From a virus, in IMG/VR virus record IMGVR_UViG_3300022744_000001, positions 66,022-130,021 of that record: a DNA stretch of 64,000 nt. One strand, 5' to 3'. The notes below the pieces were generated by a model. That model ran no database searches. It saw nothing but the letters and a program-made list of their open reading frames with translations, and was not told the DNA's origin. Positions 3,769-63,628 of the stretch are shown here, in pieces. Each line of letters begins with the position of its first letter. Within the stretch, counting starts at the first letter, position 1. The position numbers and the translations under genes are program-made.

Positions 3769-3804
3769 GTCCTGGTAACGCAGAGGGTCGAGGGTTTCTA
3801 TACC
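3769..3804 (-). promoter_or_regulatory. M1 motif (TATAGAAA-N13-GCGTTACCAGGAC-ATG)
   Basis: consensus copy abutting ATG 3768. Confidence 0.55.
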
Positions 3805-3817
3805 AAGCCAGAAGAAA

Positions 3818-4021
3818 TCAACACGGACCGCAGAGGGACCAGTCCCCAACGGGGAGAACCTTGACGGCCGGGCTCTCCTTCGTGAGGTTGAGCTTACCCG
3901 CCTCTTCTTGAGCCTCCTGTTCGGAGTCACAAGCGAAGACGATGTGCCAGGAGAACACGGTCTCCCACACATTGCCGTTCATCCGAATCCCTTTGGACGA
4001 TTTCACCCAGATATTGAACAT
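3818..4021 (-). CDS. hypothetical protein (67 aa)
   Basis: ATG 4021 followed upstream by M1 (4022-4072) with AGGAGCGAG RBS. Confidence 0.5.
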   Translation of the reverse strand: MFNIWVKSSKGIRMNGNVWETVFSWHIVFACDSEQEAQEEAGKLNLTKESPAVKVLPVGDWSLCGPC

Positions 4022-4072
4022 GGCTCGCTCCTGTCAAAAGAACGCGCGAGCCCGCCCCGGTCTATACTCGGG
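4022..4072 (-). promoter_or_regulatory. M1 motif (TATAGACC...GCGTTCTT...ATG)
   Basis: consensus copy. Confidence 0.5.
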
Positions 4073-4457
4073 GGAGGTTGCTCAGTCCCGGGTCAGCAAC
4101 CTCGAGCTGCTCTGAGACCGAGGCCACTGTGATCAGACAGTGAGCCAGGTTCTGGCGGTCCTCTTTCCCCAAAGGCATGTCCCCAAGGAGCCGGTTCGAG
4201 ATGACGTGGATCGCCTGGAGCTGGCAGCCCTTGATGAGGTAGACCCGACGAGCCCCCGAGTCGTTATGGGAGTCCACGAAATCCAAGGGTTGCACTACGG
4301 GGGTTACTCCCAGGAGTTCAGCGGGGCTCGGGGTTTCCGGAGTGGGACGACTCTCCACAGACTTGCGCCAGCTTTCGGCCGCGATGGGGTCAGCGAAAAC
4401 CATCACGGGAAGCTGGGAGCCGTCTTGGGACGCCAACTTTGCAAGGTAAATGGTCAT
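4062..4457 (-). CDS. hypothetical protein (131 aa)
   Basis: ORF track; no M1/M2; followed upstream by 120 bp lower-GC spacer with two AATCC/GGATT hairpins. Confidence 0.4.
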   Translation of the reverse strand: MTIYLAKLASQDGSQLPVMVFADPIAAESWRKSVESRPTPETPSPAELLGVTPVVQPLDFVDSHNDSGARRVYLIKGCQLQAIHVISNRLLGDMPLGKEDRQNLAHCLITVASVSEQLEVADPGLSNLPRV

Positions 4458-4576
4458 AGGTACTCGCGTTTTTGTGTTAGGCGTCGAGGGGTCACCGCCG
4501 TCACAAGCCGCAGCGTAACAGAATCCCTGAATGGGATTGTTTCAAGAAAGTAAAATGTGCACGAATCCTCGGGGAT

Positions 4577-4933
4577 TTAGCTCAAATGTAACACTCGAGC
4601 CCTGATTTCCCGTGCAAGTATCCGCCATTGATCATGCTCGTGGGACTCCCAGCGCTCGAGCATCGACGCGACAAGTTCTCGTGAAGTTCTGCGTAGATGT
4701 TCAAAGGTATGAGGGTCGCTAAAGCGACGAGGGGAGCACAAAACCAAGGGGTCTGTAACTACCCCGATCTCATGGACTGTCATCGAGTGCAGGGATGCAA
4801 GCACTCGTCCCGACGGGAAGAATGCTTTCAGCAGAGAGGCCACATCTTCCTGGGTGTGGTTGCCAAGCTCCACAATGACCCAGTTTCCGTAGCCGCCCTC
4901 CTTGTACTTGTAGAGCAGGTGGCTCACGCTCAA
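4577..4933 (-). CDS. hypothetical protein, TTG/GTG start, weak
   Basis: ORF track only; no ATG start, no motif. Confidence 0.25.
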   Translation of the reverse strand: MSVSHLLYKYKEGGYGNWVIVELGNHTQEDVASLLKAFFPSGRVLASLHSMTVHEIGVVTDPLVLCSPRRFSDPHTFEHLRRTSRELVASMLERWESHEHDQWRILAREIRARVLHLS

Positions 4934-5013
4934 GGCGGCGGATAAGACGATCCAAAATTCAAGTACAGGTTGTGAGGCCCTCGAACGTTAATTAGGAAAA
5001 CGTAGGAGGTTCT

Positions 5014-5205
5014 ATGGGAGTTGACCCTAGCTATCTGGCTCGAGCCGTGTTGCGCTGTGTCGCAGTTGCCGTGACGATGGGCCTTGTAGTGGGCTTCAGT
5101 GGGTATCTTCATTCAAAGAGTGCGAGCGTAGGCATTTTGCTTGGGTTGTGGAGTGCCGGTCTTTTCCTCATGAATGGAGATGTAGTTCCGCTCCCGAAGG
5201 ACTGA
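5014..5205 (+). CDS. small membrane protein (2 predicted TM helices)
   Basis: strong GTAGGAGGT RBS 6 nt before ATG; hydrophobic segments. Confidence 0.5.
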   Translation: MGVDPSYLARAVLRCVAVAVTMGLVVGFSGYLHSKSASVGILLGLWSAGLFLMNGDVVPLPKD

Positions 5206-5245
5206 GAAAACTTTTGTGGGGTTGCTCCCGTAGCAGGGAGCGAAC

Positions 5246-10650: not shown

Positions 10651-11061
10651 TCAGCCCTTCGTCGCTTTCTTCTCGGCCCGACGAAGTTCTTTGCGGACGC
10701 GCTTGAGGCGGTCAGAAGCTTCCGGGTAGCCCGGCATGCTCCAAGAGTCCTTGCGAGCCTTCATCGCCCGACCCTTCAACGCCATCACGTGCTTGCGGGC
10801 GGAGGCGTAACGGGCGCGAAGCTCGTCGAGGGTCAGCTCCTTCTTGGCGGCCTTCGGCTGGTTCTGGCCCATGTAGACGCGGAAGCCGCGGGCTTCCAGC
10901 TCAAGGCGAAGGGCCACCTTCGCGGCGTTGACGGCGACTTCGTCGCTCTCGCTCGTGGTGAGCGTCGGGACGTACCCGTTTTTGAGGGAAGCTTCGAGCT
11001 GGCTCCAGCTCGAGAAGGCAGTGACCGTGGTCGTCAGGGTGTTGAGTGCTTGGCTTTCCAT
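10651..11061 (-). CDS. hypothetical protein, Lys-rich C-terminus (136 aa)
   Basis: ATG 11061 abuts M1. Confidence 0.6.
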   Translation of the reverse strand: MESQALNTLTTTVTAFSSWSQLEASLKNGYVPTLTTSESDEVAVNAAKVALRLELEARGFRVYMGQNQPKAAKKELTLDELRARYASARKHVMALKGRAMKARKDSWSMPGYPEASDRLKRVRKELRRAEKKATKG

Positions 11062-11097
11062 GTCCTGGTAACGCGCAGGGGGAGGGGTTTCTATACT
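11062..11097 (-). promoter_or_regulatory. M1 motif (TATAGAAA-N13-GCGTTACCAGGAC-ATG)
   Basis: consensus copy. Confidence 0.55.
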
Positions 11098-12183: not shown

Positions 12184-12232
12184 GGCCCGTTCTCCTTGTC
12201 TTGAGAACGCGCAAGCCCTCGAGCTTCTATAC
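12184..12232 (-). promoter_or_regulatory. M1 motif
   Basis: TATAGAAG-N13-GCGTTCTC...ATG. Confidence 0.5.
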
Positions 12233-12568
12233 TGGCCTTGTCGCTTTTCTGCGCGCCTTCGTCGGGTAGCTCTGGCGAGGGGCCGCCTTCCGGATACCTG
12301 GCCGGGACTCCGGAACGTCACTCAGATTGGCGGTAGCCCAGATAAATGCGAGCGAATCCCGGCTCTTGTTCGTGTTGGGTACGTGCTGAACTACGTCAGC
12401 GTGGGGGATTTCTGCGTTCAACCGGGTCTCGATGTTCACGCAAAAATAGCGCTTCTCCCCGTTGCTCTCCCGAACCTCGAACACGAGATACTCGTGCTCC
12501 GCAGTGTGGATCACGTCTCCCGCTGCGATCTCCTTTTGGGAGCTAACAAGATACAGTTGAGGGGGCAT
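12227..12568 (-). CDS. hypothetical protein (113 aa)
   Basis: ORF track; GGGGAGAAC RBS. Confidence 0.45.
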   Translation of the reverse strand: MPPQLYLVSSQKEIAAGDVIHTAEHEYLVFEVRESNGEKRYFCVNIETRLNAEIPHADVVQHVPNTNKSRDSLAFIWATANLSDVPESRPGIRKAAPRQSYPTKARRKATRPV

Positions 12569-18799: not shown

Positions 18800-19111
18800 T
18801 CACCGAGAAGCCTTGGACAGGTCCAGGTGGTAGGTGGCGTCCTTGTGCTTGGGCTGGTTGAGCTGCCAGAGGAAAAACAGGATGAAGGCTACCGCCGCCT
18901 TCTCGCTCAAGCCCGCCGCCTTGAGGCCCGCTTCCGTGGACCGGAGAGCGCCGCCCACGACTTCCATGTACCCCCGACGCACCAGCGGGCCGTACGTGCG
19001 CTTGTCGTCCGAGTAGATGCTCGGGACGTTGAACTGCGGGCTCCCGGTCGTGAAGCTCGGGATCGCGCCGCGGTGGATGAGCTTGGTCTGCTTGTCGGTG
19101 AGCTTTTCCAT
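18800..19111 (-). CDS. hypothetical protein (103 aa)
   Basis: M1 upstream. Confidence 0.6.
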   Translation of the reverse strand: MEKLTDKQTKLIHRGAIPSFTTGSPQFNVPSIYSDDKRTYGPLVRRGYMEVVGGALRSTEAGLKAAGLSEKAAVAFILFFLWQLNQPKHKDATYHLDLSKASR

Positions 19112-19146
19112 GACCTGGTAACGCGTAGGCGGTCGAGTCCCTATAC
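19112..19146 (-). promoter_or_regulatory. M1 motif
   Basis: TATAGGGA-N13-GCGTTACCAGGTC-ATG. Confidence 0.55.
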
Positions 19147-19162
19147 TGGGGCGAGTCGAAAT

Positions 19163-19441
19163 TCAGACGGTCGGGTACTCGATGCCCGCGACCTTGCGCC
19201 AAGAGTAGGAGTTCGCTTCGTAATCCGTTCCGAAGCACACCTTGTGCACCGTCGTGATCATCTCGTCCTGGCCCGAGATGATGATCCGCTTCTTCCCGAA
19301 CAGGTTGGCGCCGAAGAGGGCTCGCTGCTGGTCGGCGGTCATCCGGCCATCCCAGGTGCCGAAGCACGAGCCCGTCTTCTCCGTGAGGAAGACGGCAAGG
19401 TTAGCGATCGTGTCCCAGTTCTGGCTCTTCTGCTTTTCCAT
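19163..19441 (-). CDS. hypothetical protein (92 aa)
   Basis: M1 upstream (19442-19476). Confidence 0.6.
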   Translation of the reverse strand: MEKQKSQNWDTIANLAVFLTEKTGSCFGTWDGRMTADQQRALFGANLFGKKRIIISGQDEMITTVHKVCFGTDYEANSYSWRKVAGIEYPTV

Positions 19442-19497
19442 GCCCTACGAACGCGTGAGGGATCGACTTTCTATACCGCCCGGTGTAGAAAACGCCA
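19442..19497. promoter_or_regulatory. back-to-back M1 (minus) and M2 (plus) copies
   Basis: CTATACC-GCC-CGGTGTAGAA. Confidence 0.5.
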
Positions 19498-21169: not shown

Positions 21170-21655
21170 TCACTCGCTGGGGCGGGATTGATTTTGAAGC
21201 CAAGCCGCGACGCGGCGGAAGCTTTCTTTCTGATCGGGCGTGAGGCCCGACATGAGATTGGCTGCACGGGTCAGAAGCTCTGCGGACATGAGGAGGTCGG
21301 TGCTGGGCGGGGTGGGGCTGGACAGGCTCTTCAAGGAATCCGGGCCCGGGACGGGCTCATCCCGGCGCCACCACTGGCCATCGGGCAAGAGGCGCAACCC
21401 GGCCACAGCGACCTTCTCCGCCGCTTCCTGGGCCTGCCGGAAGGTGCCCGCGTTCGAGTCCCAGCGGGTGAACACGATGACCTTGAAGAGCTTGCCCTCA
21501 GCCCCCACGACCTCGAACGACCAACGGTCCGGGGTGCCCGCGAGAGAGACCAGGTGGATCACTACGAGGCCCATCGTGACCACGCCATCCGCCTCAAAGG
21601 GGATGCGGGTCGAGATGCTGTGCTGGCTCGAGCTACGGCGTGCGAACTTCATCAT
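21170..21655 (-). CDS. hypothetical protein (161 aa)
   Basis: degenerate M1 upstream. Confidence 0.5.
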   Translation of the reverse strand: MMKFARRSSSQHSISTRIPFEADGVVTMGLVVIHLVSLAGTPDRWSFEVVGAEGKLFKVIVFTRWDSNAGTFRQAQEAAEKVAVAGLRLLPDGQWWRRDEPVPGPDSLKSLSSPTPPSTDLLMSAELLTRAANLMSGLTPDQKESFRRVAAWLQNQSRPSE

Positions 21656-21978
21656 GTCTGGGTAACGCGCAAGCGGTTGGTTTTCTGAACCGACTTCCGA
21701 ACTTTTTTCGTGGGCTCGACCTGAATCGTCGCGTACTCATCGGGCGTCGGCGGCCGTGTCCCTTGCCTGTCCGGGGTGGCGATTCGTTCACGACGGCACC
21801 AGACCGCCTTGGTGGGCACGTCCTGCGGGTGGGCACGCTTCGCGCACCGGTCGCAACACGCAACCTGCTCCCCCGGCGTTCGGTTCGGGAGATCCGTCCA
21901 AATCGGGGTCGGGGTGCGACAGAAGCAGCACCGTTCGTACGGGGGTTCCGCGTGGGGCTCGAGCTGAACGGGAATCAT
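21652..21978 (-). CDS. Cys-rich zinc-ribbon protein
   Basis: GAGGTG RBS. Confidence 0.45.
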   Translation of the reverse strand: MIPVQLEPHAEPPYERCCFCRTPTPIWTDLPNRTPGEQVACCDRCAKRAHPQDVPTKAVWCRRERIATPDRQGTRPPTPDEYATIQVEPTKKVRKSVQKTNRLRVTQT

Positions 21979-23146: not shown

Positions 23147-23198
23147 CTTGTCTAGGAAACGCGCCAGCTACCGAGTTTCTATACTGGGAAAAGCTGAA

Positions 23199-23807: not shown

Positions 23808-23849
23808 GGCGCGTCTCCTTGCTTAGAGAACGCGCAAGGGGTCAACGTC

Positions 23850-24131
23850 CTATACCGGACTCGCCAAAATCCGAGCTATCCGAGACCCGACCTGAAACAC
23901 CTCTTCGGCGAGGTCGGGTTGTAAACGGAAGTCGCACCCGAGCACGGAACCTACAACACCAGAGGTGCAGCGGCTCCGGTCTACCCAGAGGCTGTGTTGC
24001 GCCAGGTCCCAGAATTCTGGGCTCACATACACGGTGGGTTTATCCCCGGGGTGGGTGAGGCCCAGAGATTCCACACGCATGGTCGTGAAGAGGCGCTGGA
24101 GGAGCAGGTCGCCATCTTTACTTTTCAGCAT
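23850..24131 (-). CDS. hypothetical protein, weak
   Basis: internal ATG only. Confidence 0.25.
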   Translation of the reverse strand: MLKSKDGDLLLQRLFTTMRVESLGLTHPGDKPTVYVSPEFWDLAQHSLWVDRSRCTSGVVGSVLGCDFRLQPDLAEEVFQVGSRIARILASPV

Positions 24132-24249: not shown

Positions 24250-24435
24250 TCAACCCGCGAAGAACTCTTTGAACGTGGCCAGGTCCACCCGAGACACCTG
24301 GCCATCTCGCTCGAGCAGAATGCGAGTCTCTCCGAGAACCCGCTCCGTGCCTTTGTAGGTGAAGTGTTCGCCGGTCAGAGCGTTTTGGACTTCGTCCCCG
24401 GGGTAAACAGTGGTTCGTTGAATGGCGTGGGCCAT
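24250..24435 (-). CDS. hypothetical protein (61 aa)
   Basis: M1 upstream. Confidence 0.45.
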   Translation of the reverse strand: MAHAIQRTTVYPGDEVQNALTGEHFTYKGTERVLGETRILLERDGQVSRVDLATFKEFFAG

Positions 24436-24508
24436 GCAAGAAGAACGCACGAGAACCCGGCGGCCTATACTGGGCCTCTGGTGAAAGTATCTATCCCTGG
24501 GGGTGAGT

Positions 24509-25426: not shown

Positions 25427-25852
25427 TTAGAACACCTTTTCGCCGATCCGGCGGATTGCCGACGCGCGGTAGCTCTCGATGACCTCTTCGCTCCACGGCA
25501 CCCGGCCGTCCACGACGATGTCGGCCACTCGAACGATGCACCCGCAAACCCCAGCCCCGCCGACGTGGGTGGCGTCCTCGCGCGAACAGTGGATGATCTT
25601 CGTCCCCTCGAGTCGAAACCATCCATCCACGCGGAAGCCATGGTGGCCAAAGGTATCGTCTTTGCGGATGAAATGGAAAAGGTCTCCGATATCCGGGGCG
25701 AGCTGACGTGGCTGCTCGCGCACCCAGTGGTCACGGCCTTCCTCGTCGAGGATTTCGTCGATGATCCGCTGGGCCAACTCCTCGGAGGTTTCCTCGGGGT
25801 GTTCATCGCGAAGCCGGGTCGCGATCTCGAGCATCCGCTTTTTGTCTTCCAT
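25427..25852 (-). CDS. hypothetical protein (141 aa)
   Basis: M1 upstream. Confidence 0.6.
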   Translation of the reverse strand: MEDKKRMLEIATRLRDEHPEETSEELAQRIIDEILDEEGRDHWVREQPRQLAPDIGDLFHFIRKDDTFGHHGFRVDGWFRLEGTKIIHCSREDATHVGGAGVCGCIVRVADIVVDGRVPWSEEVIESYRASAIRRIGEKVF

Positions 25853-25903
25853 GTCCTGGTAACGCGCAAGCCCCGGGGTTTCTATACTTGGTGTATGGCT
25901 TAC
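25853..25903. promoter_or_regulatory. divergent M1 (minus) + M2 (plus)
   Basis: TTCTATAC-TTGGTGTATG. Confidence 0.5.
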
Positions 25904-26263
25904 ATGATCAATGGTTACGACACTTCCTTGCCCGGCATCCCCTCGCAGGTGGACTTTGAAACCATAGTGAAAGTCACCCGGGGAGCTTGGCCCTACGGCG
26001 TCATTGAGTGGGATGATGGGAAGGTCGAAACGCTCAAAACCACCGTCTATCGCCAGTGGTATGAAACCATCTTCCTGTACGACACTTGGGATGCCTACCG
26101 TTCATGGACCGACCACGGGCTCACGGTCGCTAATCAAGACAGCATGATCATGGTCATTCCTGACTGTGACGCCCTGCACTTCACCTCGAGCGCCGTGGAC
26201 TCGCGCACGGGCAAGCTCGTCGAGAAGATCAAGAACGCCATCTTCAAAGCGCGCTACGACTAG
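25904..26263 (+). CDS. hypothetical protein (119 aa)
   Basis: M2-placed start. Confidence 0.5.
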   Translation: MINGYDTSLPGIPSQVDFETIVKVTRGAWPYGVIEWDDGKVETLKTTVYRQWYETIFLYDTWDAYRSWTDHGLTVANQDSMIMVIPDCDALHFTSSAVDSRTGKLVEKIKNAIFKARYD

Positions 26264-26265
26264 GT

Positions 26266-26308
26266 ATAGGCCCGGGGCAGCTCGCGCGTTCTTAGGGGGA
26301 GGTCGAAC
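26266..26308 (+). promoter_or_regulatory. M1 motif (plus orientation)
   Basis: TATAGGCC-N13-GCGTTCTT...ATG. Confidence 0.5.
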
Positions 26309-28623: not shown

Positions 28624-28735
28624 GAACCTCTACCCAGGTAACGCGGAGAGGGCCGAAACTCTATACCGGAAATTCATTGAATCTCGAGCAAGCGCCCCTC
28701 TAAAATCAGTGTACCAAACAAGGGGGACGAGAACG

Positions 28736-38834: not shown

Positions 38835-38876
38835 GGCACGTTCTCCTAGCCCATGAACGCGCCAGGGGCCCGGAGT

Positions 38877-39092
38877 CTATACCGCCCCCTTCTTAACCAG
38901 GTCGTCGGTGACCTCATCGAGCATGGAAGCCAGGTCGCCGCGCCCCAGCCGTTCCAGCGTCGTGGCCAGGTCGTCCAGGACGCCCACGGCGCCCTTGTCC
39001 TGGAGGTCCCGGGCCCGCCGCTCCGGGGCCCGCTTCCGAGCTTTCTCGGCCGCGTGGCGGGCCCGCTTGGTATTCCTGGGGCTCTTGGGCAC
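38877..39092 (-). CDS. basic hypothetical protein (GTG start, TAGGAGGAAC RBS)
   Basis: strong RBS. Confidence 0.45.
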   Translation of the reverse strand: MPKSPRNTKRARHAAEKARKRAPERRARDLQDKGAVGVLDDLATTLERLGRGDLASMLDEVTDDLVKKGAV

Positions 39093-42314: not shown

Positions 42315-42380
42315 GGCTTGCTCCCTTTGGAAAGAGTAACGCGCGAGGGACCGAGAATCTATACCGGTGTAGCTAGGGGC

Positions 42381-47482: not shown

Positions 47483-47570
47483 GACATCTTCTCCTCATCC
47501 CCGTAACGCGCCAGAGCCCAAGACCCTATACAATCTTGATTTTCTCCGCACCTCGCCTACGCTGGCAAGC

Positions 47571-51073: not shown

Positions 51074-51117
51074 GGGTCCTTGTCCTGGTAACGCGCCAGG
51101 GGGCGGGGTTCTATACC

Positions 51118-51954
51118 TCAGAGGCCCGCGGGCCAGGGGTACTTGGTCATGTTGTGGAACTCGGGGTAGTGCATCTTGCCGCGGATGCTCTGGGCCTCGG
51201 GGGTCACTTCGCCGTCCACGATGAGGCCGAAGGCCGCCCACACGTGGTCACGCTCGAGGAGGGCGAGGGCCTGGGCCGTGTTCAGCTCAGAGCGGCTCTT
51301 GCCGGTCAGCTCGCGGAGCTTGCTGGGGGCGTCCTCGAAGATGGTCGCGAGCGTAGACGTGGTGTGGTTCTTGAGGGCCGAGTCAATCCGCTTCTGGTAG
51401 GAGGCGATCTTCTCCGCGAGCTTCTGGGCTCGCTTGTCCTGGACGCGCTTCTGAGCCGTGGCTTTGGTCTCCTCGACCTTGCGGGCAGCTTCCTCGACCG
51501 TCTGGAGGGGCTCGAGCTTCCAAGCCGCGATGCGAGCCTCGCAACGAGCGATGTCTTCCTGGAACCAGCGGATGCTCTGCTTGGTCGCGTGGGTCGTGTT
51601 GCTCAGGAGCAACTCCCAGCCTTCCTCACCCTTGGAGACTTCCACGAACTCGACCGTGCGAGTGACGCGGACCTTGACCTCTTTGAGGAGCTTCGTGACC
51701 TCACCGGCGACCAGCTTGGCCAGGTAGGTCTCAGCGTTCGCGAGCTTGGCCTTGAGGCCGCCCGTGTACTGCTTGAGGACCTCACAGCTCTGCTCGTACG
51801 CGGGCTCGCCCACCGCCATGCAGTCACCGACGATGAAGCCGTGGCCCGGGCGCTTGAACCCGTGGTGCACCATCGTGTGGCCAGCCTTGGGGTTCAGCTT
51901 GAACTGGGCTTCGCAGATTTGGCAGTGTCCGATGTAGCGGGTCTTCGTTTCCAT
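51118..51954 (-). CDS. hypothetical protein with N-terminal Cys/His cluster and coiled coil (278 aa)
   Basis: M1. Confidence 0.6.
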   Translation of the reverse strand: METKTRYIGHCQICEAQFKLNPKAGHTMVHHGFKRPGHGFIVGDCMAVGEPAYEQSCEVLKQYTGGLKAKLANAETYLAKLVAGEVTKLLKEVKVRVTRTVEFVEVSKGEEGWELLLSNTTHATKQSIRWFQEDIARCEARIAAWKLEPLQTVEEAARKVEETKATAQKRVQDKRAQKLAEKIASYQKRIDSALKNHTTSTLATIFEDAPSKLRELTGKSRSELNTAQALALLERDHVWAAFGLIVDGEVTPEAQSIRGKMHYPEFHNMTKYPWPAGL

Positions 51955-51994
51955 GTCCTATGAACGCGCAGGGGGTTGCGGTTCTATACCGAAA

Positions 51995-52258: not shown

Positions 52259-52339
52259 GAGGGTCTCCTTGGCCTATGAACGCACGAGGGTAGGGCCAGG
52301 CTATACCGCGTCGAGTCGAATTTTCCCTGTGAGCGAGCG

Positions 52340-52520
52340 TACGTCCCCGTATAGGGGCGTGACCGCCGAAACGTTACCAAGGGTGTGGTGGGTGGGCGCG
52401 CGTGGGCTAGGCGGGGCCGAAACCTGTCCAGTGGAGGCAGAATCCGCGGGGGACGGGCTCAGCGGGTAAAGGAAAATGCTTGACAAATGAAAACGGCCAA
52501 AACCTCGCCTTTCCGCGGGG
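52340..52520 (+). ncRNA. candidate non-coding transcript: orphan plus-oriented M1 copy followed by CAAGGGTGTGGTGGGTGGG, element X (AACCTGTCCAGTGGAGGCAGAATCCGC) and a 10-bp hairpin
   Basis: no ATG after the M1 downstream half; conserved elements repeated at 53685 and 56440/56900. Confidence 0.3.
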
Positions 52521-53090: not shown

Positions 53091-53288
53091 TCAGTCCGGG
53101 GTGTGCCGTTGGTACTCCGACGTCATGGCTTCCAGGACCTCTTGCAGGTCCTCGCCGGTGAAGAAGCGTTCTGCCTTGCGGTATGCCTTCTCCAGCTCCT
53201 GGTCGGTCTTGCACGTACGCGCCAGGGCGATCAGCTGGTCGTAGGTCTCGCTGACATCGTAGCCAGTAGGCTTCTTCTTGCGTGCCAT
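53091..53288 (-). CDS. hypothetical basic protein (65 aa)
   Basis: M1. Confidence 0.5.
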   Translation of the reverse strand: MARKKKPTGYDVSETYDQLIALARTCKTDQELEKAYRKAERFFTGEDLQEVLEAMTSEYQRHTPD

Positions 53289-53327
53289 GTCCTATGAACG
53301 CGCGAGGGGGCTCGAGCCTATACCGGC

Positions 53328-53603
53328 TCAGCGGCCCTGGTCGATGCGGTAGGCCAGCTCGGATTTGGCGCGCACCAGGGCGTCGGCCAGGTAGAGGGTC
53401 TTCTCGGATACGTCCCCGACAGGGCGATGGGTGATGCGGCGGGTCAGGTAGAGCGTCACCTGCTCCCAGGCTCGAGCCATCGCGGAGGCACGCTTCCGGG
53501 CCTCCTCCGTGGTCGCGTGGTTCCAAGCCAGGTCCTGCCACATCCCGATCAGGGCGGCGGACTGGGTACGGGCAGAGTGAAGGGCGATGATTCGTGCGTA
53601 CAT
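53328..53603 (-). CDS. hypothetical protein (91 aa)
   Basis: M1. Confidence 0.55.
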   Translation of the reverse strand: MYARIIALHSARTQSAALIGMWQDLAWNHATTEEARKRASAMARAWEQVTLYLTRRITHRPVGDVSEKTLYLADALVRAKSELAYRIDQGR

Positions 53604-53684
53604 GCCCTAGAAACGCGCGAGCCAGCTCGAGCCTATACCGAAAACGACCACGAACTTTCCTTGTGGGCGAGCACACGTCCAGGT

Positions 53685-53860
53685 TTAGACCGAGCCGTCC
53701 CGGTGCGTTACCAAGGGTGTGGTGGGTGGGAGCCCCCCGGGCGGGCGTCCGGGACCTCGAGCCAAGAAAAACGACATGGCACGAAGATTGTCCGGGGGAT
53801 CTTTCGAACTCGAGCATATAGAAGGCCCCCAGAGGGCCGGGCACATAGAACCCGCAACCC
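53685..53860 (+). ncRNA. second candidate non-coding transcript: orphan plus M1-like copy + CAAGGGTGTGGTGGGTGGG
   Basis: homologous to 52300-52390 element; only ORF after it is A/R/P/G-rich and antisense to a supported gene. Confidence 0.25.
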
Positions 53861-54189: not shown

Positions 54190-54223
54190 GCCGGTATAGA
54201 ACTGGCCTACCTGGGGCGTTATC
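54190..54223 (+). promoter_or_regulatory. M1 motif (plus)
   Basis: TATAGAAC-N13-GCGTTATC-ATG. Confidence 0.5.
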
Positions 54224-54457
54224 ATGGTCATGAGGATGGCGGTTCAATCTGAGCGTGCGCAACGAGTCGTGAGGCTGGCAGCTGAGGAGGCTGCGAAGCC
54301 CACGACGTCCTTCCTGTTCGCCACGGATGGTCTCGGGGCGTTTGCGGCCCGGGCCGAGGCGATCCTGGCCGACACGGCGGATGCGGCCAAGTCGGTTGGG
54401 ATGAGCGAAGCCGAGCACGAGGCGTATGTAGCCCGCTTCCTCTGCTACGAGGTGTGA
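54224..54457 (+). CDS. hypothetical protein (77 aa)
   Basis: M1. Confidence 0.5.
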   Translation: MVMRMAVQSERAQRVVRLAAEEAAKPTTSFLFATDGLGAFAARAEAILADTADAAKSVGMSEAEHEAYVARFLCYEV

Positions 54458-56814: not shown

Positions 56815-56990
56815 GGTGACTACCTTTCCTGTATACCGTGGTGCACCATTTCCGTATACCGGTTTATACCATTCCTGTATACCGCGCGCAACCCCTCCCC
56901 GGCTGGCGCGTTCACGTGCCCACCCACCACACCCTTGTGAACGCGCCAGCCCCCTCGTTCCTATACCTGGACGTGGCCCAGCCCACGAAC
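56815..56990. promoter_or_regulatory. operator/promoter hub: four GTATACC boxes, perfect 15-bp inverted repeat GGCTGGCGCGTTCAC/GTGAACGCGCCAGCC around GGGTGTGGTGGGTGGG, and minus-oriented M1
   Basis: seen directly. Confidence 0.55.
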
Positions 56991-57035
56991 AATCGCACCC
57001 GTATAGAACCAGCCATCCTCGTGCGTTAGAGGGAC
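56990..57035 (+). promoter_or_regulatory. M1 motif (plus)
   Basis: TATAGAAC-N13-GCGTTAGAGGGAC-ATG. Confidence 0.55.
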
Positions 57036-57383
57036 ATGGCACGCTACCAACACATCGCAATCGGGGCCCTCGAGAGGGGCGTTCGCACCCTTGCCAAGAG
57101 CCTCGAGAAGCTCGGGCTCACCACCCAGGTCCACGTGTTCAAGAGCGGCCCCGGCGGCGCCACGTACTTCGGAGCGTCCTACGTCGAACTCGAGGTGAGC
57201 GTCACCTTCAATACCCCCGAGGGCGAGCAGGATGCCTCCCACACGGTCAAGTTCCTGGCCAACGGGTACACGAGCAACGACGCCGACGAAATCGGCGGTA
57301 CCCAGGGCTGGCGCCCCATGGGCGAGGAAGCTCGTACCCGCATCCTCACCAAGCTCCAGGAGCAGGGCTGGAAGCTCCCCTGA
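57036..57383 (+). CDS. hypothetical protein (115 aa)
   Basis: M1. Confidence 0.55.
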   Translation: MARYQHIAIGALERGVRTLAKSLEKLGLTTQVHVFKSGPGGATYFGASYVELEVSVTFNTPEGEQDASHTVKFLANGYTSNDADEIGGTQGWRPMGEEARTRILTKLQEQGWKLP

Positions 57384-57437
57384 GCCAGTATAGAACCACC
57401 CACCCTCGCGCGTTCATAGAGCACAAGGAGCAAGTCA

Positions 57438-57524
57438 TGGCCAAGCGCAAGACCCCCACGTTCATCATCGAGGAGAATGTCGGCAACGGCCACCACGACC
57501 CCTCGCGCGTTCATAGGGCATGAG
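57438..57524 (+). CDS. 28-aa ORF between a full M1 copy (with added AAGGAG RBS) and a second GCGCGTTCAT half-motif
   Basis: seen directly; coding status uncertain. Confidence 0.3.
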
Positions 57525-57804
57525 CAAGAAAGCCCCAGTCCAGTTCGGCCGCGGTACCAACAAGGTGATTGGCAAGACCCGCACCATCATCTCGGACGAC
57601 AAGGAGTACATCTCCAAGTGCGGCGAGTACAAGATTGAGGGTCGCCACTTCGTCCTCCCCTACTCCTCCTACGCCTACACCCTCTACAAGATGGTGGGCG
57701 GGCAATGGGTCCGCCTCGGCTCCGGAGGCGAACACGACAAGCTCGCGGACGCCAAGTTCGCCGCTTGTGCCGACCGTGACCCCAACTACGAACCCACCGT
57801 CTGA
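57520..57804 (+). CDS. hypothetical protein (94 aa)
   Basis: half-M1 (GCGCGTTCATAGGGC-ATG). Confidence 0.55.
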   Translation: MSKKAPVQFGRGTNKVIGKTRTIISDDKEYISKCGEYKIEGRHFVLPYSSYAYTLYKMVGGQWVRLGSGGEHDKLADAKFAACADRDPNYEPTV

Positions 57805-62035: not shown

Positions 62036-62065
62036 CCAGGGTCCCGGGGCTCATCGGGACCCTGG
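62036..62065. terminator. 10-bp GC hairpin CCAGGGTCCC/GGGACCCTGG
   Basis: seen directly. Confidence 0.45.
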
Positions 62066-62089
62066 CGTGCACATTCCCATCTACTAGCA

Positions 62090-62172
62090 CTACGGCCCCA
62101 GGGTTCCAAATTGTGACAGGGGCGGTTTAGAATTGTTGAAGCTCGTGCGTTCTTGGGGCAAAGGGGGCGTTC
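62090..62172 (+). promoter_or_regulatory. M1 variant (TTAGAATT...GCGTTCTT...ATG)
   Basis: consensus-like. Confidence 0.45.
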
Positions 62173-62448
62173 ATGTCCAAGGAAAGCATCGTGATTGAGG
62201 CTCGGGACCCGCAGGGCGAGCGTGTTGCCCGTGCGGTGGCCGAGATGTGTTGGCAGCTCGGCCTTGGGGTCCTTCGTGTCCATGGGGACAAGGTGGGGAT
62301 GGCCACGGCCTACTTCGAGACTGCGGACGAGTGCGGCTTTGCCAAGGAGAGCGTGGAAGCGCTCTTTGGCGATATGTTTCAGGTACTTGAGCACCCGCAC
62401 GTCTCCAAGTGCGGGCTCACGGTGCGAATTCGTCCCGAGTCGGTTTAG
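62173..62448 (+). CDS. hypothetical protein (91 aa)
   Basis: M1. Confidence 0.55.
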   Translation: MSKESIVIEARDPQGERVARAVAEMCWQLGLGVLRVHGDKVGMATAYFETADECGFAKESVEALFGDMFQVLEHPHVSKCGLTVRIRPESV

Positions 62449-62493
62449 AAACTCGAGGGGTTGCGCGTTCTCAGGACAACAGGGAGAACGGCC

Positions 62494-62778
62494 ATGAAGA
62501 TGTTTGGCGGCAACGGCGGTCACGCGAACTACAAGAAGAACCTTGAGCGTACGATGTACGCGGACCCCACCCAGTGCTGTGTCTACTGCGGCAAGAGTGT
62601 GGGCAAGGGTCGCTTGAGCGTCTTCCTCAACTGCCACAATCAGGCGGTGGCTGCGGACGAGACCTTGCCGGACTTCCTCGGCTACTACCCGATCGGTTCC
62701 GATTGCGCGAAGAAGGCCAAGAAGGAAGGCATCCCGGTCTACTTGGCCGATGACGCGGGCAAGTTCACGGCCGCGTGA
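62494..62778 (+). CDS. hypothetical protein with CCVYCG...C zinc-binding motif
   Basis: M1 + AGGGAGAACGG RBS. Confidence 0.5.
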   Translation: MKMFGGNGGHANYKKNLERTMYADPTQCCVYCGKSVGKGRLSVFLNCHNQAVAADETLPDFLGYYPIGSDCAKKAKKEGIPVYLADDAGKFTAA

Positions 62779-62828
62779 TTTCGTCTCGAGTCAGTATAGA
62801 TTCGCAGACCCTGACACGTTCATAGGAC

Positions 62829-63062
62829 ATGAAGCTCAGCGATGCACAAGTGAATGGGCTCCGGAAGTTCTCTCAGGCGGGTGGGCATGGGTACGGGGAG
62901 TACGCCTACCTGTCTCGGGCCACGGCGAAGAGTCTGGCCAAGAAGGGGCTCGTGACGCTCTCCTACCGTGGGAAGTACCCTTGGGGCGAGGCTACGGAGC
63001 TGGGCCGCAAGGTTTTGAAGGACCGGGACGATAGTTTCCTCTCCTGCTTGAAAGAGGTTTGA
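62829..63062 (+). CDS. hypothetical protein (77 aa)
   Basis: M1. Confidence 0.55.
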   Translation: MKLSDAQVNGLRKFSQAGGHGYGEYAYLSRATAKSLAKKGLVTLSYRGKYPWGEATELGRKVLKDRDDSFLSCLKEV

Positions 63063-63064
63063 TC

Positions 63065-63313
63065 ATGGAACGCCGCTACGAAGTTGTGGAATCGAAGACC
63101 TGGAAGGCCACGGATGGCCGGACCGCGAGCATCTTCGGGTCTCTCCCTTGGACCACGGAGGCTGACCGCGCCAACTGGTCCATCGTGGTGGACGGGTACA
63201 CGGTGCGTGACCACCTTCGCAACACGGTGGGGCTCGGCCGTCGTCCCTTCGAGACCCAGGCGGAGGCTCAGGTGGTGGCGGACAAGCTGGAGTCGCTCCG
63301 GGTGCGTTCGTGA
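63065..63313 (+). CDS. hypothetical protein
   Basis: stop-start proximity. Confidence 0.45.
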   Translation: MERRYEVVESKTWKATDGRTASIFGSLPWTTEADRANWSIVVDGYTVRDHLRNTVGLGRRPFETQAEAQVVADKLESLRVRS

Positions 63314-63528
63314 CCCCTCAAGTCAAGTTCCTCGACGCGGAGAAGCCGGAGGGTCAAGCCTTCAAGGCACGGCTCGAGAGTGGGGACATCCCGCTCGTGG
63401 TCAACTTCAACCCTCTCCACGTGGTCTACGGGCTCGACACGGAGGGGAACCTTTGCGCGTGGGACGACTCGGAAGCCTACGCGATTTGGGTCGAGCAGGA
63501 GCGGTTTTGGGACTACGGGGAGCTTTGA
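63310..63528 (+). CDS. hypothetical protein (GTG start)
   Basis: GTGA overlap. Confidence 0.45.
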   Translation: MTPQVKFLDAEKPEGQAFKARLESGDIPLVVNFNPLHVVYGLDTEGNLCAWDDSEAYAIWVEQERFWDYGEL

Positions 63529-63628
63529 CCCGTTGATTCCTTTGTAGGTTTTGGTGAGAAGAGATCCTGGACGGGCCTCTGAGTATAGGCGGCGGCCCCC
63601 TCGCGCGTTACTGGAGCAGGAGCAAGAA

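What the first reader, a model, noticed from the sequence alone, without database searches (positions are those of the whole stretch)
3769..63628. Reiterated ~40-nt bipartite start-proximal motif M1 (TATAGAA-N13-GCGCGTTACCAGGAC-ATG), about 34 copies
Copies on both strands sit at a fixed distance from start codons; representative minus-strand copies lie at 3769, 11062, 19112, 25853 and 51074, and plus-strand copies at 35343, 56990 and 62790. The conservation runs right up to the ATG, which suggests leaderless or near-leaderless transcription from a dedicated promoter class. The layout (AAC...CGTT) is reminiscent of ECF-type -35/-10 elements but with a shorter spacer. A minority of copies add an SD-like AAGGAG between motif and ATG; examples are 12184 and 57385. 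The motif partitions the window into many single-gene or short transcription units.
Basis: seen in the sequence. Interest (0 to 1): 0.8.

Follow-up and report, generated by a model that had tools for sequence, protein, structure and literature searches.

The report
Private leaderless promoter class, huge phage
A roughly 448-kb uncultivated giant phage carries about 35 near-identical two-box promoter sequences, many placed so that transcription should start exactly on the ATG of the gene. The boxes do not match the ordinary bacterial promoter, so a dedicated, still unidentified sigma-type factor probably reads them.

Summary
The window holds 32 rigid copies of GTATAG-N16-GCGTT (one has N17) plus 3 degenerate ones. 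The motif carries about 32 bits. All copies are intergenic and point at the downstream gene.

If +1 is the A that lies 9 nt after GCGTT:
- the boxes sit at -35..-30 and -13..-9;
- 13 copies have ATG exactly at +1;
- 14 copies have an 8-16 nt leader that starts with a Shine-Dalgarno sequence;
- no leader is 4-7 nt or longer than 16 nt.

A distant relative (L111) has a reiterated housekeeping-like promoter, TTGCAC-N16/17-TAGAGT-N6-ATG, in the same register and upstream of an orthologous gene. So M1 occupies a promoter slot but uses private boxes. A second leaderless class in the same genome (M2, CCGGTGTAG-N7-9-ATG) has a box like the -10 regions of relatives.

Best reading: M1 is a dedicated promoter class read by RNA polymerase carrying an alternative sigma70-family factor, probably phage-encoded. 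No sigma or polymerase gene was found in the 83 kb I could read, about 19% of the genome. No transcription start site data exist.

Measured from GTATAG, the spacing is canonical. I rate this a new member of a known kind, of moderate interest.

The parts
262..298 (-). M1 promoter copy (positions -36..+1); 13-nt leader with GAGGAG; gene 1-249
   Evidence: matrix score 30.7; leader
3768..3804 (-). M1 copy; ATG at +1; DUF6573 gene 3355-3768
   Evidence: score 37.0; independent gene call starts at +1 (L009 6833); Pfam
4032..4068 (-). M1 copy; 11-nt leader with AGGAG; gene 3818-4021
   Evidence: score 37.4
11061..11097 (-). M1 copy; ATG at +1; gene 10651-11061
   Evidence: score 43.1
12197..12233 (-). 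M1 copy; 14-nt leader with AAGGAG; gene 11767-12183
   Evidence: score 44.2
19111..19147 (-). M1 copy; ATG at +1; gene 18800-19111
   Evidence: score 38.2
19441..19477 (-). M1 copy; ATG at +1; gene 19163-19441; back-to-back with an M2 box on the + strand
   Evidence: score 42.7
21655..21691 (-). M1 copy (GTTCAG variant); ATG at +1; gene 21170-21655
   Evidence: score 27.2; independent gene call
23149..23185 (-). M1 copy; 3-nt leader; gene 22769-23146
   Evidence: score 41.7
23820..23856 (-). M1 copy; 13-nt leader with AAGGAG; gene 23433-23807
   Evidence: score 38.4
24435..24471 (-). M1 copy; ATG at +1; gene 24250-24435
   Evidence: score 31.7
25852..25888 (-). M1 copy; ATG at +1; ORF 25427-25852, followed by a Tad2-like gene; back-to-back with an M2-like box for 25904+
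   Evidence: score 44.8. The source's gene caller called an overlapping + strand ORF here instead.
26263..26299 (+). M1 copy; 10-nt leader with GAGG; gene 26309-26566
   Evidence: score 35.5
28631..28667 (-). M1 copy; 8-nt leader with AGAGG; gene 28159-28623
   Evidence: score 32.9
35355..35391 (+). M1 copy; ATG at +1; gene 35391-35693
   Evidence: score 44.3; independent gene call
38847..38883 (-). M1 copy; 13-nt leader with AGGAG; gene 38499-38834
   Evidence: score 37.5
42329..42365 (-). M1 copy; 15-nt leader with GGGAG; ProQ_C-like gene 41769-42314; -35 box overlaps an M2 box on the + strand (CTATACCGGTGTAG)
   Evidence: score 34.1
47496..47532 (-). M1 copy; 14-nt leader with GAGGAG
   Evidence: score 25.3
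51081..51117 (-). M1 copy; 8-nt leader with AAGGA; gene 50792-51073
   Evidence: score 46.7
51954..51990 (-). M1 copy; ATG at +1; 278-aa gene 51118-51954, whose orthologues in relatives carry housekeeping-like leaderless promoters
   Evidence: score 43.1
52270..52307 (-). M1 copy with a 17-nt spacer; 12-nt leader with AAGGAG; gene 51995-52258
   Evidence: read directly from the sequence
53288..53324 (-). M1 copy; ATG at +1; gene 53091-53288
   Evidence: score 44.1
53603..53639 (-). M1 copy; ATG at +1; gene 53328-53603
   Evidence: score 40.0
53682..53718 (+). M1 variant (GTTTAG) followed by GTGGTGGGTGGG; no credible ORF; candidate non-coding transcript
   Evidence: score 25.1
54193..54229 (+). 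M1 copy; ATG at +2
   Evidence: score 32.6
56931..56967 (-). M1 variant followed by GTGGTGGGTGGG and a 120-nt leader that holds a GGTATAC box array; 81-aa ORF 56565-56810
   Evidence: score 34.1
57000..57036 (+). M1 copy; ATG at +1; gene 57036-57383
   Evidence: score 30.9
57387..57423 (+). M1 copy; 14-nt leader with AAGGAG
   Evidence: score 41.8
62124..62160 (+). M1 copy (GTTTAG); 13-nt leader with GGGGG; gene 62173-62448
   Evidence: score 34.5
62442..62478 (+). M1 copy (GTTTAG); 16-nt leader with GGGAG; gene 62494-62778
   Evidence: score 40.9
62793..62829 (+). M1 copy; ATG at +1; gene 62829-63062
   Evidence: score 32.9; independent gene call
63582..63618 (+). M1 copy; 11-nt leader with AGGAG; gene 63629 onward
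   Evidence: score 33.4
2636..2672 (-). Degenerate M1 (ACATAT-N16-GCGTT); 13-nt leader with GAGGG; gene 2393-2623
   Evidence: the -10 box is intact, the -35 box matches 3 of 6
4962..4998 (+). Degenerate M1 (GTACAG-N16-AACGTT); leader with GGAGG; 63-aa gene
   Evidence: score 12.6, which is within the range reached by shuffles; placement fits the gene call
52348..52384 (+). Degenerate M1 variant followed by GTGGTGGGTGGG; no credible ORF
   Evidence: score 14.0

Best explanation
M1 is a class of near-consensus, two-box promoters in a circularly assembled genome of about 448 kb that is probably a huge phage.

Anatomy: the -35 box is GTATAG (-35..-30). A rigid 16-bp spacer follows, with C-18 and T-17 conserved. 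The -10 box is GCGCGTT (-15..-9). An 8-nt discriminator ending in GGAC follows, and transcription should start at the next A.

In 13 copies that A is the A of ATG, which gives leaderless mRNAs. In 14 copies the transcript begins with a Shine-Dalgarno sequence and reaches ATG after 8-16 nt.

Both boxes differ from the housekeeping-type boxes that relatives use, and that this genome's second class (M2) uses. The geometry is that of sigma region 4 plus sigma region 2 on a multisubunit RNA polymerase. The most likely reader is therefore the host core polymerase carrying an alternative sigma70-family factor (group 3 or 4-like), probably encoded by the phage.

Shown: the motif, its rigidity, its placement, and the equivalent register in a relative. 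Inferred: that it is a promoter, the exact start site, and the identity and origin of the factor.
For: 1. Number and rigidity: 31 copies score above 25 against a shuffle maximum of 17.6. All have a 16-nt spacer, and one extra copy has 17. The alignment is gap-free. Information content is 32 bits, about 12 in each box.

2. Placement: every copy is intergenic and oriented toward the next gene. Overlap with upstream coding sequence is 0-8 nt, apart from start-calling artefacts.

3. Start site:
- ATG lies at +1 in 13 copies; P(14 or more of 31) is about 2e-19.
- Leader lengths are bimodal: 0, 1 or 3 nt, or 8-16 nt. Every long leader begins with a Shine-Dalgarno sequence within 0-5 nt of +1.
- C at -1 (21/29) and A at +1 (22/29) fit the usual pyrimidine/purine start preference.
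- Independent gene calls begin at the predicted +1, or at the predicted ATG after the leader, in 10 of 11 copies within L001, and also in the flanking loci L009 and L012.

4. GCGTT keeps its distance to GTATAG, not to ATG. The distance from GCGTT to ATG is 8 nt in leaderless copies and 16-24 nt in copies with a leader. That argues for recognition of both boxes on DNA.

5. Relatives: L111 (the query protein's homologue is 50% identical) has 14 copies in 14.7 kb of TGATTTA-GTTGCAC-N16/17-TAGAGT-N6-ATG. These are in the same register and include one upstream of the orthologue of the gene 51118-51954. L116 has TTGAAT/TTGACT-type leaderless promoters.

6. M2 (CCGGTGTAG-N7-9-ATG, 19 strict copies against 0.2 expected) resembles the -10-only boxes of relative L117 (GTAGTA-N5-ATG) and the TAG-initial -10 of L111. 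M1 is therefore the class that departs from the lineage's housekeeping type.

7. Canonical TTGACA/TATAAT matches are at or below chance in the window.

8. AT-rich tracts lie upstream of the -35 box in 13 of 31 copies against 11% background. This resembles the TGATTTA tract of L111 and is compatible with a contact by the polymerase alpha subunit.

9. ECF-type sigmas use about 7-bp and 5-bp boxes with 15-18 bp spacers and need near-consensus promoters (PMC7776599). This matches the format and the invariance of M1.
Against: - There are no transcription start site or expression data.
- No sigma70 region 2/4, gp55-like or RNA polymerase subunit gene was detected in the window or its flanks. This covers 83 kb, about 19% of the genome (Pfam; PHROGs, the latter covering the first half of the window only; precomputed Pfam).
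- The orthologous slot in L111 is a housekeeping-like promoter, and some M1-driven units carry anti-defence-type genes (a Tad2-like gene downstream of 25852). If M1 genes are early, the reading factor must already be present at infection. That fits a host sigma or a virion-delivered enzyme as well as a newly made phage sigma.
- The -35 box GGTATAG differs by one base from the M2 box GGTGTAG, which is unexplained.
- No other genome with M1 was found, so conservation of the motif across related genomes could not be tested.
Confidence: 0.6

Rival explanations
1. M1 is a promoter, but it is read by a phage-encoded RNA polymerase that needs no host core. This could be a virion-packaged or non-virion multisubunit enzyme of the phiKZ/AR9 type, or a single-subunit enzyme.
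For: - The genome is about 448 kb and encodes proteins shared with huge and jumbo phages.
- Jumbo phages that encode polymerases have a highly conserved motif, findable by bioinformatics, upstream of early operons (PMC7598289).
- M1 units are rich in small ORFan and anti-defence-type genes, which is typical early-gene content.
- A packaged enzyme would explain how a non-host promoter could be read at the start of infection.
Against: - Known jumbo-phage early motifs are a single AT-rich block of about 10 nt centred at -10. Late motifs are even shorter.
- M1 is bipartite with a rigid 16-bp spacer and a GC-rich -10 box, which is the geometry of sigma regions 4 and 2.
- T7-type promoters span only about -17 to +6 (own knowledge).
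- N4-type promoters need a hairpin, and none is enriched.
- No leaderless transcript was detected for phiKZ.
- No polymerase subunit gene lies in the 83 kb read.
Confidence: 0.15
2. M1 is read by a host sigma factor. This would be either an alternative host sigma (ECF, FliA or stress type) or the housekeeping sigma of a host with unusual promoter specificity.
For: - The orthologous slot in relative L111 carries a housekeeping-like promoter, so these genes may be transcribed by unmodified host enzyme on entry.
- The CGT(T) -10 core and the 16-17 bp spacing resemble ECF promoters. From own knowledge, the offset from TATAG to GC is the same as in FliA-type promoters (TAAAGTTT-N11-GCCGATAA).
- No phage sigma gene was found.
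Against: - M2 in the same genome looks like the lineage's housekeeping -10, so M1 cannot also be the housekeeping type.
- Relying on a normally sequestered or low-abundance host sigma for dozens to hundreds of phage promoters is unusual.
- The core pattern gives only single, chance-level hits in GTDB species genomes, IMG/VR and JGI metagenomes. No host regulon with this motif surfaced, although the stringent pattern would miss degenerate host sites.
Confidence: 0.1
3. Only the upstream box is a promoter element. GGTATAG would act as a -10-like box in the way the M2 box GGTGTAG does, with a start about 8 nt downstream. GCGCGTT...GGAC would then be a conserved 5'-UTR element acting on translation or as a binding site for a protein or RNA, like the start-associated sequences of Cluster K mycobacteriophages.
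For: - The M1 upstream box and the M2 box differ by one base and share the CCGG prefix.
- Conservation runs up to the ATG.
- Cluster K start-associated sequences are 13-bp repeats 3-7 bp from start codons with a proposed role in translation (PMC3203893).
Against: - GCGTT is locked to GTATAG (16 nt in 31 of 32 copies) but floats relative to ATG (8 nt or 16-24 nt). A translation element should do the opposite.
- In M2 the distance from box to ATG varies (7-10 nt), so a start set by that kind of box would not impose a rigid spacing.
- No pyrimidine/purine start signature or other conservation is seen at -23..-20.
- AGGAC abuts the ATG, which is too close for Shine-Dalgarno function.
- Copies with a leader carry their own Shine-Dalgarno sequence.
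- The A versus G difference separates the classes perfectly: no M1 copy has GTGTAG.
- No consensus RNA structure is predicted.
Confidence: 0.07
4. M1 copies are primarily recombination or shuffling cassettes, or RNA-level elements such as processing sites or terminator hairpins, and not transcription signals.
For: - Reiterated promoter/terminator cassettes (PeSLs) flank ORFans in the hyperplastic regions of T4-like phages and mediate indels (PMC2839356, PMC4122927).
- The window is an ORFan-rich region.
- A 466-nt indel between assemblies ends inside an M1 copy.
Against: - The indel junction is a 3-nt microhomology (CCA) at non-equivalent positions, not an exchange between two M1 copies.
- Spacers are unrelated between copies, so conservation is by selection on the boxes and not by recent duplication.
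- There is no enriched hairpin around the -35 box (mean -9.7 against -8.9 kcal/mol, p = 0.18).
- RNAalifold predicts zero pairs.
- Terminator-like sites are not enriched.
- A shuffling role would in any case add to promoter function, not replace it.
Confidence: 0.03

Closest known systems
ECF (group 4) sigma-dependent promoters, including phage-encoded ECF-like sigmas such as phiEco32 gp36 (the latter from own knowledge)
   Same: - Two short boxes (about 7 and 5 bp) with a fixed 15-18 bp spacer.
- CGT core in the -10 box.
- Near-consensus copies are required (PMC7776599).
- A phage can use such a sigma to redirect host core polymerase.
   Different: - The -35 box is GTATAG, not the usual (G)GAAC. 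AAC is only weakly present at -29..-27, and at a spacing that would be too short.
- No cognate sigma or anti-sigma gene was seen.
- No autoregulated sigma operon was identified.
- Direct fusion of the start site to ATG is not a feature of ECF regulons.
Housekeeping-type leaderless promoters: the reiterated promoter of relative L111, and the leaderless transcriptomes of Deinococcus and mycobacteria (PMC4007540, PMC4633059)
   Same: - Same register: -35 hexamer, 16-17 bp spacer, -10 hexamer, then 6 nt to the A of ATG.
- Same mix of leaderless and short Shine-Dalgarno-led variants.
- Similar GAC|ATGGA context around +1.
   Different: Both boxes are replaced: GTATAG for TTGCAC, and (GCG)CGTTnn for TAGAGT. 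There is no TAnnnT hexamer, so the housekeeping sigma is unlikely to read M1.
Early promoters of polymerase-encoding jumbo phages (phiKZ, AR9)
   Same: A phage-specific, highly conserved motif that can be found by bioinformatics upstream of many small early operons in a very large phage genome (PMC7598289).
   Different: - Those motifs are a single AT-rich block of about 10 nt centred at -10. M1 is bipartite with a GC-rich -10 box.
- phiKZ showed no leaderless transcripts (PMC8244752).
PeSL promoter/stem-loop cassettes of T4-like phages
   Same: Reiterated regulatory cassettes that flank ORFans in plastic genome regions (PMC2839356, PMC4122927).
   Different: - PeSLs are sigma70 early promoters combined with a terminator stem-loop.
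- M1 has no enriched stem-loop and no sigma70 boxes.
- No indel mediated by M1 copies was observed.
Start-associated sequences (SAS/ESAS) of Cluster K mycobacteriophages
   Same: An asymmetric repeat found in one phage group only, immediately upstream of start codons of non-structural genes, with a strong preference for ATG (PMC3203893).
   Different: - SAS is 13 bp, contains the Shine-Dalgarno core and sits 3-7 bp from the start codon, where the ribosome-binding site would be.
- M1 is 37 bp and bipartite. Its boxes are locked to each other and not to the ATG.
- In 13 M1 copies there is no room for any leader.

Membership tests
Bacterial sigma70-family two-box promoter (generic) | Two conserved boxes centred near -35 and -10, separated by a fixed spacer of about 16-18 bp | tested here: met
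   GTATAG-N16-GCGTT in 31 of 32 copies, although spacers of 14-16 nt were allowed. The alignment is gap-free. The boxes fall at -35..-30 and -13..-9 relative to the inferred +1.
Bacterial sigma70-family two-box promoter (generic) | Located upstream of genes and oriented with them, with a purine start 6-9 nt after the -10 box | tested here: met
   - All copies are intergenic and co-oriented with the next gene.
- A at +1 in 22/29 and C at -1 in 21/29.
- ATG or a Shine-Dalgarno sequence begins at +1.

The start site itself is inferred, not measured.
Bacterial sigma70-family two-box promoter (generic) | Transcription initiates there in vivo or in vitro | not testable with these tools
   No transcriptome or biochemical data are available.
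Housekeeping (sigma70/sigmaA) promoter | -35 TTGnnn and -10 TAnnnT hexamers | tested here: not met
   M1 has GTATAG and CGTTnn at those positions. The sigma70 consensus scan finds 1 site against 3.4 expected, and 1 against 2.6.
ECF (group 4) sigma promoter | -10 box with a CGT core | tested here: met
   C-12, G-11 and T-10 are invariant in 29/29 seed copies.
ECF (group 4) sigma promoter | -35 box with an AAC core, 16-18 bp from the -10 box | tested here: not met
   A-29 is 19/29, A-28 is 16/29 and C-27 is 10/29. AAC would lie only about 14 nt from CGT. The invariant -35 box is GTATAG.
ECF (group 4) sigma promoter | A cognate sigma with only regions 2 and 4, often autoregulated and paired with an anti-sigma | tested here: inconclusive
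   No Sigma70_r2 or Sigma70_r4 hit in the window or in precomputed Pfam annotation of the flanks. Only about 19% of the genome could be read.
Sigma54 promoter | GG at -24 and GC at -12 | tested here: not met
   GC occupies -13/-12, but -25/-24 are not GG (the most frequent base at -24 is C, 15/29). The invariant -35 box would also be unexplained.
Jumbo-phage virion-polymerase early promoter | A single AT-rich conserved block of about 10 nt centred at -10 | tested here: not met
   M1 is bipartite. AT content at -15..-11 is 6%. The description of the family is taken from PMC7598289.
N4-type hairpin promoter | A conserved inverted repeat forming a short hairpin upstream of the start site | tested here: not met
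   Folding energy of -55..-14 does not differ from arm-shuffled controls (p = 0.18). No covarying column pairs were found.
Cluster K start-associated sequence (translation element) | A fixed short distance to the start codon and overlap with the Shine-Dalgarno position | tested here: not met
   The distance from GCGTT to ATG is 8 nt or 16-24 nt. Copies with a leader carry a separate Shine-Dalgarno sequence downstream of the motif.
Structured RNA element | A conserved secondary structure with covariation | tested here: not met
   RNAalifold predicts 0 pairs over 31 copies. There are no Rfam hits in the window.

The most novel reading that the evidence does not exclude
This huge phage may have replaced its lineage's housekeeping-type early promoters with a private, orthogonal promoter code. 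That code would be read by a sigma-like factor of new specificity that is delivered with the virion or made immediately on entry.

The shared GGT(A/G)TA(G/C) core is found in three places: the M1 -35 box, the M2 box, and the five-box array in the leader of the 81-aa ORF at 56565-56810. It could mean that one family of phage DNA-binding modules coordinates both promoter classes, for example through a global switch or shut-off protein.
Probability: 0.2. Interest if true: 0.7.

Novelty: new member of a known kind. Interest (0 to 1): 0.45.

Why it matters
If M1 is read by a phage sigma factor of new specificity, three things follow:

- It gives a compact, high-information (about 32 bits) promoter and sigma pair that is probably orthogonal to housekeeping transcription, which is useful for synthetic biology.
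- It gives a directly testable map of transcription units for a 448-kb uncultivated phage. About 60 predicted start sites (M1 plus M2) already correct several gene starts in this window.
- It provides a natural example of a change of promoter code between related phages while the leaderless design is kept.

It also indicates that the unknown host translates leaderless mRNAs efficiently, which narrows the candidate hosts.

Tried and rejected
- **Hairpin around the -35 box (N4-like promoter or terminator).** By eye, many copies seem to have inverted repeats flanking GTATAG. Folding against arm-shuffled controls is not significant, and no column covariation was found.
- **Conserved RNA structure.** RNAalifold predicts none, and Rfam finds nothing in the window.
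- **Sigma54 reading.** Rejected because there is no GG at -24.
- **Finding the same motif elsewhere.** Exact-pattern scans of IMG/VR, GTDB species genomes and JGI metagenomes returned only single hits on unrelated contigs of different GC content. None of these contigs has a second copy.
- **Nucleotide search of 20 kb of the window against GenBank phages.** No match.
- **The large relative LR756500 (24% GC) and IMG/VR contig L016.** Both share the vault-like protein with the window, but neither has M1.
- **A sigma or polymerase gene in the window.** Pfam on all of about 130 ORFs and PHROGs on a subset found none.
- **A homology search with 16 concatenated proteins.** It saturated the candidate list and returned nothing, so one search was wasted.
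- **Walking along the 448-kb contig.** Impossible beyond about 10 kb on each side because of the limits on look-ups.
- **Ribbon-helix-helix guess for the 81-aa ORF.** There is no Pfam or PDB sequence hit and no homologues. The single-sequence AlphaFold model (pLDDT 77: coil, then helix 13-22 and helix 29-45) has no significant Foldseek match. The guess is not established.
- **Recombination between M1 copies as the cause of the 466-nt indel.** Rejected because the junction is a 3-nt microhomology at non-equivalent positions.

Full report
**Observation**

The downstream half of the motif, GCGCGTTACCAGGAC with up to 3 mismatches, occurs 18 times against 2.3 expected. I then searched for GTATAG (one mismatch allowed), 14-16 arbitrary bases and GCGTT. 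This returned 30 hits, all with exactly 16 bases between the boxes; 29 are real sites and one is a chance hit inside a gene. A position weight matrix built from the 29 sites finds 31 copies scoring above 25, whereas 20 shuffled windows never exceed 17.6. One further copy has a 17-nt spacer (predicted +1 at 52270, minus strand). Three copies are degenerate (2636-, 4998+ and 52384+). MAFFT aligns the 31 copies over 57 columns without a gap. The motif carries about 32 bits: roughly 12 in each box and 5 between the -10 box and the start.

**Anatomy**

I number from the A that lies 9 nt after GCGTT.
- GTATAG occupies -35..-30. G, T, T, A and G are invariant in the seeds, and A-33 is 26/29.
- C-18 (27/29) and T-17 (22/29) are conserved.
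- GCGCGTT occupies -15..-9, with -13..-9 invariant.
- The segment -4..+1 is (G)GAC|A, with C-1 in 21/29 and A+1 in 22/29.

The distribution of leader lengths is the most informative feature.
- 13 copies have ATG exactly at +1.
- One copy has ATG at +2 and one at +4.
- 14 copies have leaders of 8-16 nt, each beginning with AGGAG, GAGG or GGGAG within 0-5 nt of +1.
- No leader is 4-7 nt long and none exceeds 16 nt.
- Two copies have no ORF downstream.

The chance of 14 or more of 31 ATGs at a fixed position is about 2e-19.

GCGTT therefore keeps a fixed distance to GTATAG, while its distance to ATG is either 8 nt or 16-24 nt. The two boxes belong together on DNA. The point 9 nt after GCGTT is where either the coding sequence or the minimal ribosome-binding leader begins.

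All copies are intergenic and co-oriented with the next gene. Gene calls made independently by the source records start at the predicted position in 10 of 11 copies in L001, and also in the flanks. At the exception, 25852, the promoters suggest that the source call is wrong. They predict two divergent genes, 25427-25852(-) and 25904-26263(+), each with its own promoter.

**Source**

The window is identical to parts of a 448,224-bp MEGAHIT contig, ENA ERZ27252002 k141_47206. The two ends of that contig overlap by 141 nt inside the window, so the assembly is circular.

The region is almost entirely small ORFans. Recognisable genes include:
- a GGDEF-GAF protein and a GIY-YIG endonuclease;
- two Tad2-like anti-Thoeris domains;
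- DUF6573, a ProQ_C-like protein and an M10-like peptidase;
- an 878-aa major-vault-protein-like gene.

The vault-like protein is 37% identical to proteins of the 462-735 kb phages LR756500, LR756501 and LR756503. The 278-aa product of an M1-driven gene has distant homologues in jumbo phages of Ralstonia, Myxococcus and Tunturiibacter. I infer a huge phage, but no capsid or terminase gene lies in the 83 kb I could read.

M1 continues into the flanks, with 5 more copies.

**Comparative evidence**

The 278-aa protein (51118-51954, M1, leaderless) has homologues of 50-54% identity on other metagenomic contigs. None of those contigs has M1.

Contig L111 (JGI Ga0495500_0000108, 61% GC) has its own reiterated start-proximal motif. 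There are 14 copies in 14.7 kb of TGATTTA-nn-GTTGCAC-N16/17-TAGAGT-N6-ATG. In 10 of them ATG lies exactly 6 nt after the -10 hexamer, and two have a 34-nt Shine-Dalgarno leader. That is a housekeeping-like TTG.../TAnnnT promoter with a leaderless start. It sits in the same register as M1, including upstream of the orthologue, and it shares the GAC|ATGGA context around +1. L116 has TTGAAT/TTGACT-type leaderless promoters. L117 has -10-only GTAGTA-N5-ATG boxes.

So this lineage routinely fuses promoters to start codons, and M1 occupies that slot with different boxes. Canonical TTGACA/TATAAT matches are at or below chance in the window.

**A second class in the same genome**

CCGGTGTA(G/C)-N7-10-ATG occurs about 23-28 times. 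There are 19 strict copies against 0.2 in shuffles, and no -35 box is conserved. Its TAG-containing box resembles the -10 regions of the relatives. M2 is therefore the better candidate for housekeeping-type, -10-only recognition, comparable to the extended -10 promoters used by Thermus phage P23-45 (PMC4124052). M1 is the class that departs from the lineage's type.

GTATAG occurs 31 times in the window, almost all of them inside M1 copies. No M1 copy has GTGTAG, and M2 was defined by its GTGTA core, so the two classes do not mix.

**Mechanism**

The following features fit simultaneous recognition by sigma regions 4 and 2 on a multisubunit polymerase:
- two short boxes at -35 and -10;
- a spacer that tolerates essentially no variation;
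- near-invariant box sequences;
- an AT-rich tract upstream of the -35 box in 13 of 31 copies, against 11% background;
- a pyrimidine/purine start.

ECF-type sigmas use about 7-bp and 5-bp boxes with 15-18 bp spacers, often have a CGT core in the -10 box, and require near-consensus promoters because they melt DNA poorly (PMC7776599). From my own knowledge, the -35 GTATA and the G(C/G) at -15/-14 are also reminiscent of group 3 promoters of the FliA and sigmaF/G types. I therefore do not assign a sigma group.

I consider a phage-encoded alternative sigma the most likely reader (overall confidence 0.6). No such gene was found in the 19% of the genome I could access. If M1 genes are early genes, a host sigma or a virion-delivered enzyme would fit equally well.

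**Rivals**

- **Phage polymerase.** Known jumbo-phage early motifs are single AT-rich blocks at -10. phiKZ showed no leaderless transcripts. T7-type promoters do not reach -35 (own knowledge). An N4-type hairpin is not enriched. I give this 0.15, because huge phages are diverse.
- **Host sigma (0.10).** See the early-gene argument above.
- **Upstream box as the promoter, with GCGCGTT as a 5'-UTR element (0.07).** This is suggested by the one-base difference between GGTATAG and the M2 box. It is contradicted by the box-to-box locking, the floating distance to ATG, the lack of any start signature near -21, and the separate Shine-Dalgarno sequence in copies with a leader.
- **Shuffling cassette or RNA element (0.03).** There is no stem-loop, no predicted structure, and the one indel seen is not an exchange between M1 copies.

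**Comparison with known systems**

M1 works like an alternative-sigma promoter regulon. It is not a housekeeping promoter, a sigma54 promoter, a jumbo-phage virion-polymerase promoter, an N4 hairpin promoter or a Cluster K start-associated sequence. A defining feature of each was tested and not met. ECF membership is half met: the CGT core and the spacing fit, but there is no AAC core at -35 and the sigma is unknown.

I found no report of a GTATAG/GCGTT consensus in the searchable literature. The search returned only noise, which is weak evidence of absence.

**Verdict**

M1 is real, strongly non-random, and most likely a dedicated promoter class with leaderless or minimal-leader starts in a 448-kb phage. 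It is a new member of a known kind (phage-specific promoter classes). Two features add interest: the change of promoter code relative to a relative, and the pairing with a second leaderless class. I rate interest at 0.45. The decisive missing items are the reading factor and transcription start site data.

Noticed in passing
window, about 23-28 sites. Start codons at 812-, 7498+, 7505-, 14827-, 16125+, 17017-, 19498+, 30468-, 34540-, 34980-, 36894+, 37555-, 39592-, 40127-, 40486-, 42381+, 43879-, 44236-, 44477+, 46334-, 46696-, 56223-, 59230+. GTGTAA/GTGTAT variants at 8940-, 35011+, 38219+ and 25904+.: A second start-proximal class, M2: CCGGTGTA(G/C) followed after 7-10 nt by ATG. It is leaderless and has no conserved -35 box. 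There are 19 strict copies against 0.2 in shuffles. It resembles the -10-only boxes of relative L117 (GTAGTA-N5-ATG). The vault-like gene has the box 43 nt upstream of its ATG, followed by a leader with a Shine-Dalgarno sequence.
   Followed up: partly
window 34980-35011, 36877-36894, 42329-42381, 19441-19498 and 25852-25904: Divergent promoters are packed back to back and overlap at CCGG. M2/M2 pairs form the palindrome CTACACCGGTGTAG. M1/M2 pairs form CTATACCGGTGTAG. The M1 -35 box (CCGGTATAG) and the M2 box (CCGGTGTAG) differ by one base. This is unexplained.
   Followed up: partly
window 56831-56890 (- strand), in the leader of the ORF 56565-56810: Five boxes (GGTATAC, GGTATAA, GGTATAC, GGTGCAC, GGTATAC) lie at a period of about 11.5 nt between an M1-variant start (56931) and the ATG of an 81-aa ORFan. 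GGTATAC occurs only three times in the window, all here and 23 nt apart. This may be an operator array resembling the M1 and M2 boxes. The ORF has no homologues and no Pfam or PDB hit. Its AlphaFold model (pLDDT 77: coil plus two helices) has no Foldseek match.
   Followed up: partly
window 52340-52400 (+), 53674-53735 (+) and 56915-56975 (-): Three M1-variant copies share extra flanks, ACGTCCAGGTATAG...GCGTTACCAAGGGT|GTGGTGGGTGGG, and then diverge. The G-rich start has four G-runs. Two of the three have no credible ORF for about 150 nt and may be non-coding transcripts. There is no Rfam hit.
   Followed up: partly
window 57492 compared with L012 142-607: The window lacks 466 nt that are present in the ENA contig. 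The junction is a 3-nt CCA microhomology. The deletion removes a 106-aa RecA_N-like ORF and the -35 box of an M1 copy (L012 599-636), leaving its -10 box in front of the gene 57520-57804. Contig breaks in two assemblies coincide with the breakpoints, which suggests that both variants coexist in the sample.
   Followed up: yes
whole window: CTCGAG(C) is strongly over-represented: CTCGAGC is counted 109 times over both strands and GGCTCGAGC 20 times. This may reflect Leu-Glu codon pairs or a methylation or restriction-related bias. It was not examined further.
   Followed up: no
window 30822-33458 (+): An 878-aa protein has major-vault-protein shoulder and repeat domains (Pfam 2e-20). It is 37% identical to proteins of the 462-735 kb phages LR756500, LR756501 and LR756503 and of an IMG/VR contig. 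This appears to be a vault-like protein family shared among huge phages.
   Followed up: partly
window 24959-25420 (-) and 33579-33863 (+): There are two Tad2-like (Thoeris anti-defence) domains. The first lies downstream of the strongest-type M1 promoter at 25852. Other notable genes are a GGDEF-GAF diguanylate cyclase at 9115-10155 (+) and a GIY-YIG endonuclease at 2654-3595 (-).
   Followed up: no
first codons of the M1 leaderless genes: Nine of the 13 leaderless M1 genes begin ATGGA(A/G/C), encoding Met-Glu/Asp. Copies with a leader have AGGAG at the same offset, so GGA at +3..+5 is conserved in both types. Relative L111 likewise prefers ATGGAC or ATGAAC. This could be a preference in the initially transcribed sequence or in leaderless translation.
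   Followed up: no
window 34565-34655 (+): ARAGORN calls a 91-nt tRNA-Ala(CGC) with the anticodon at position 30. The length is unusual and the call was not verified.
   Followed up: no
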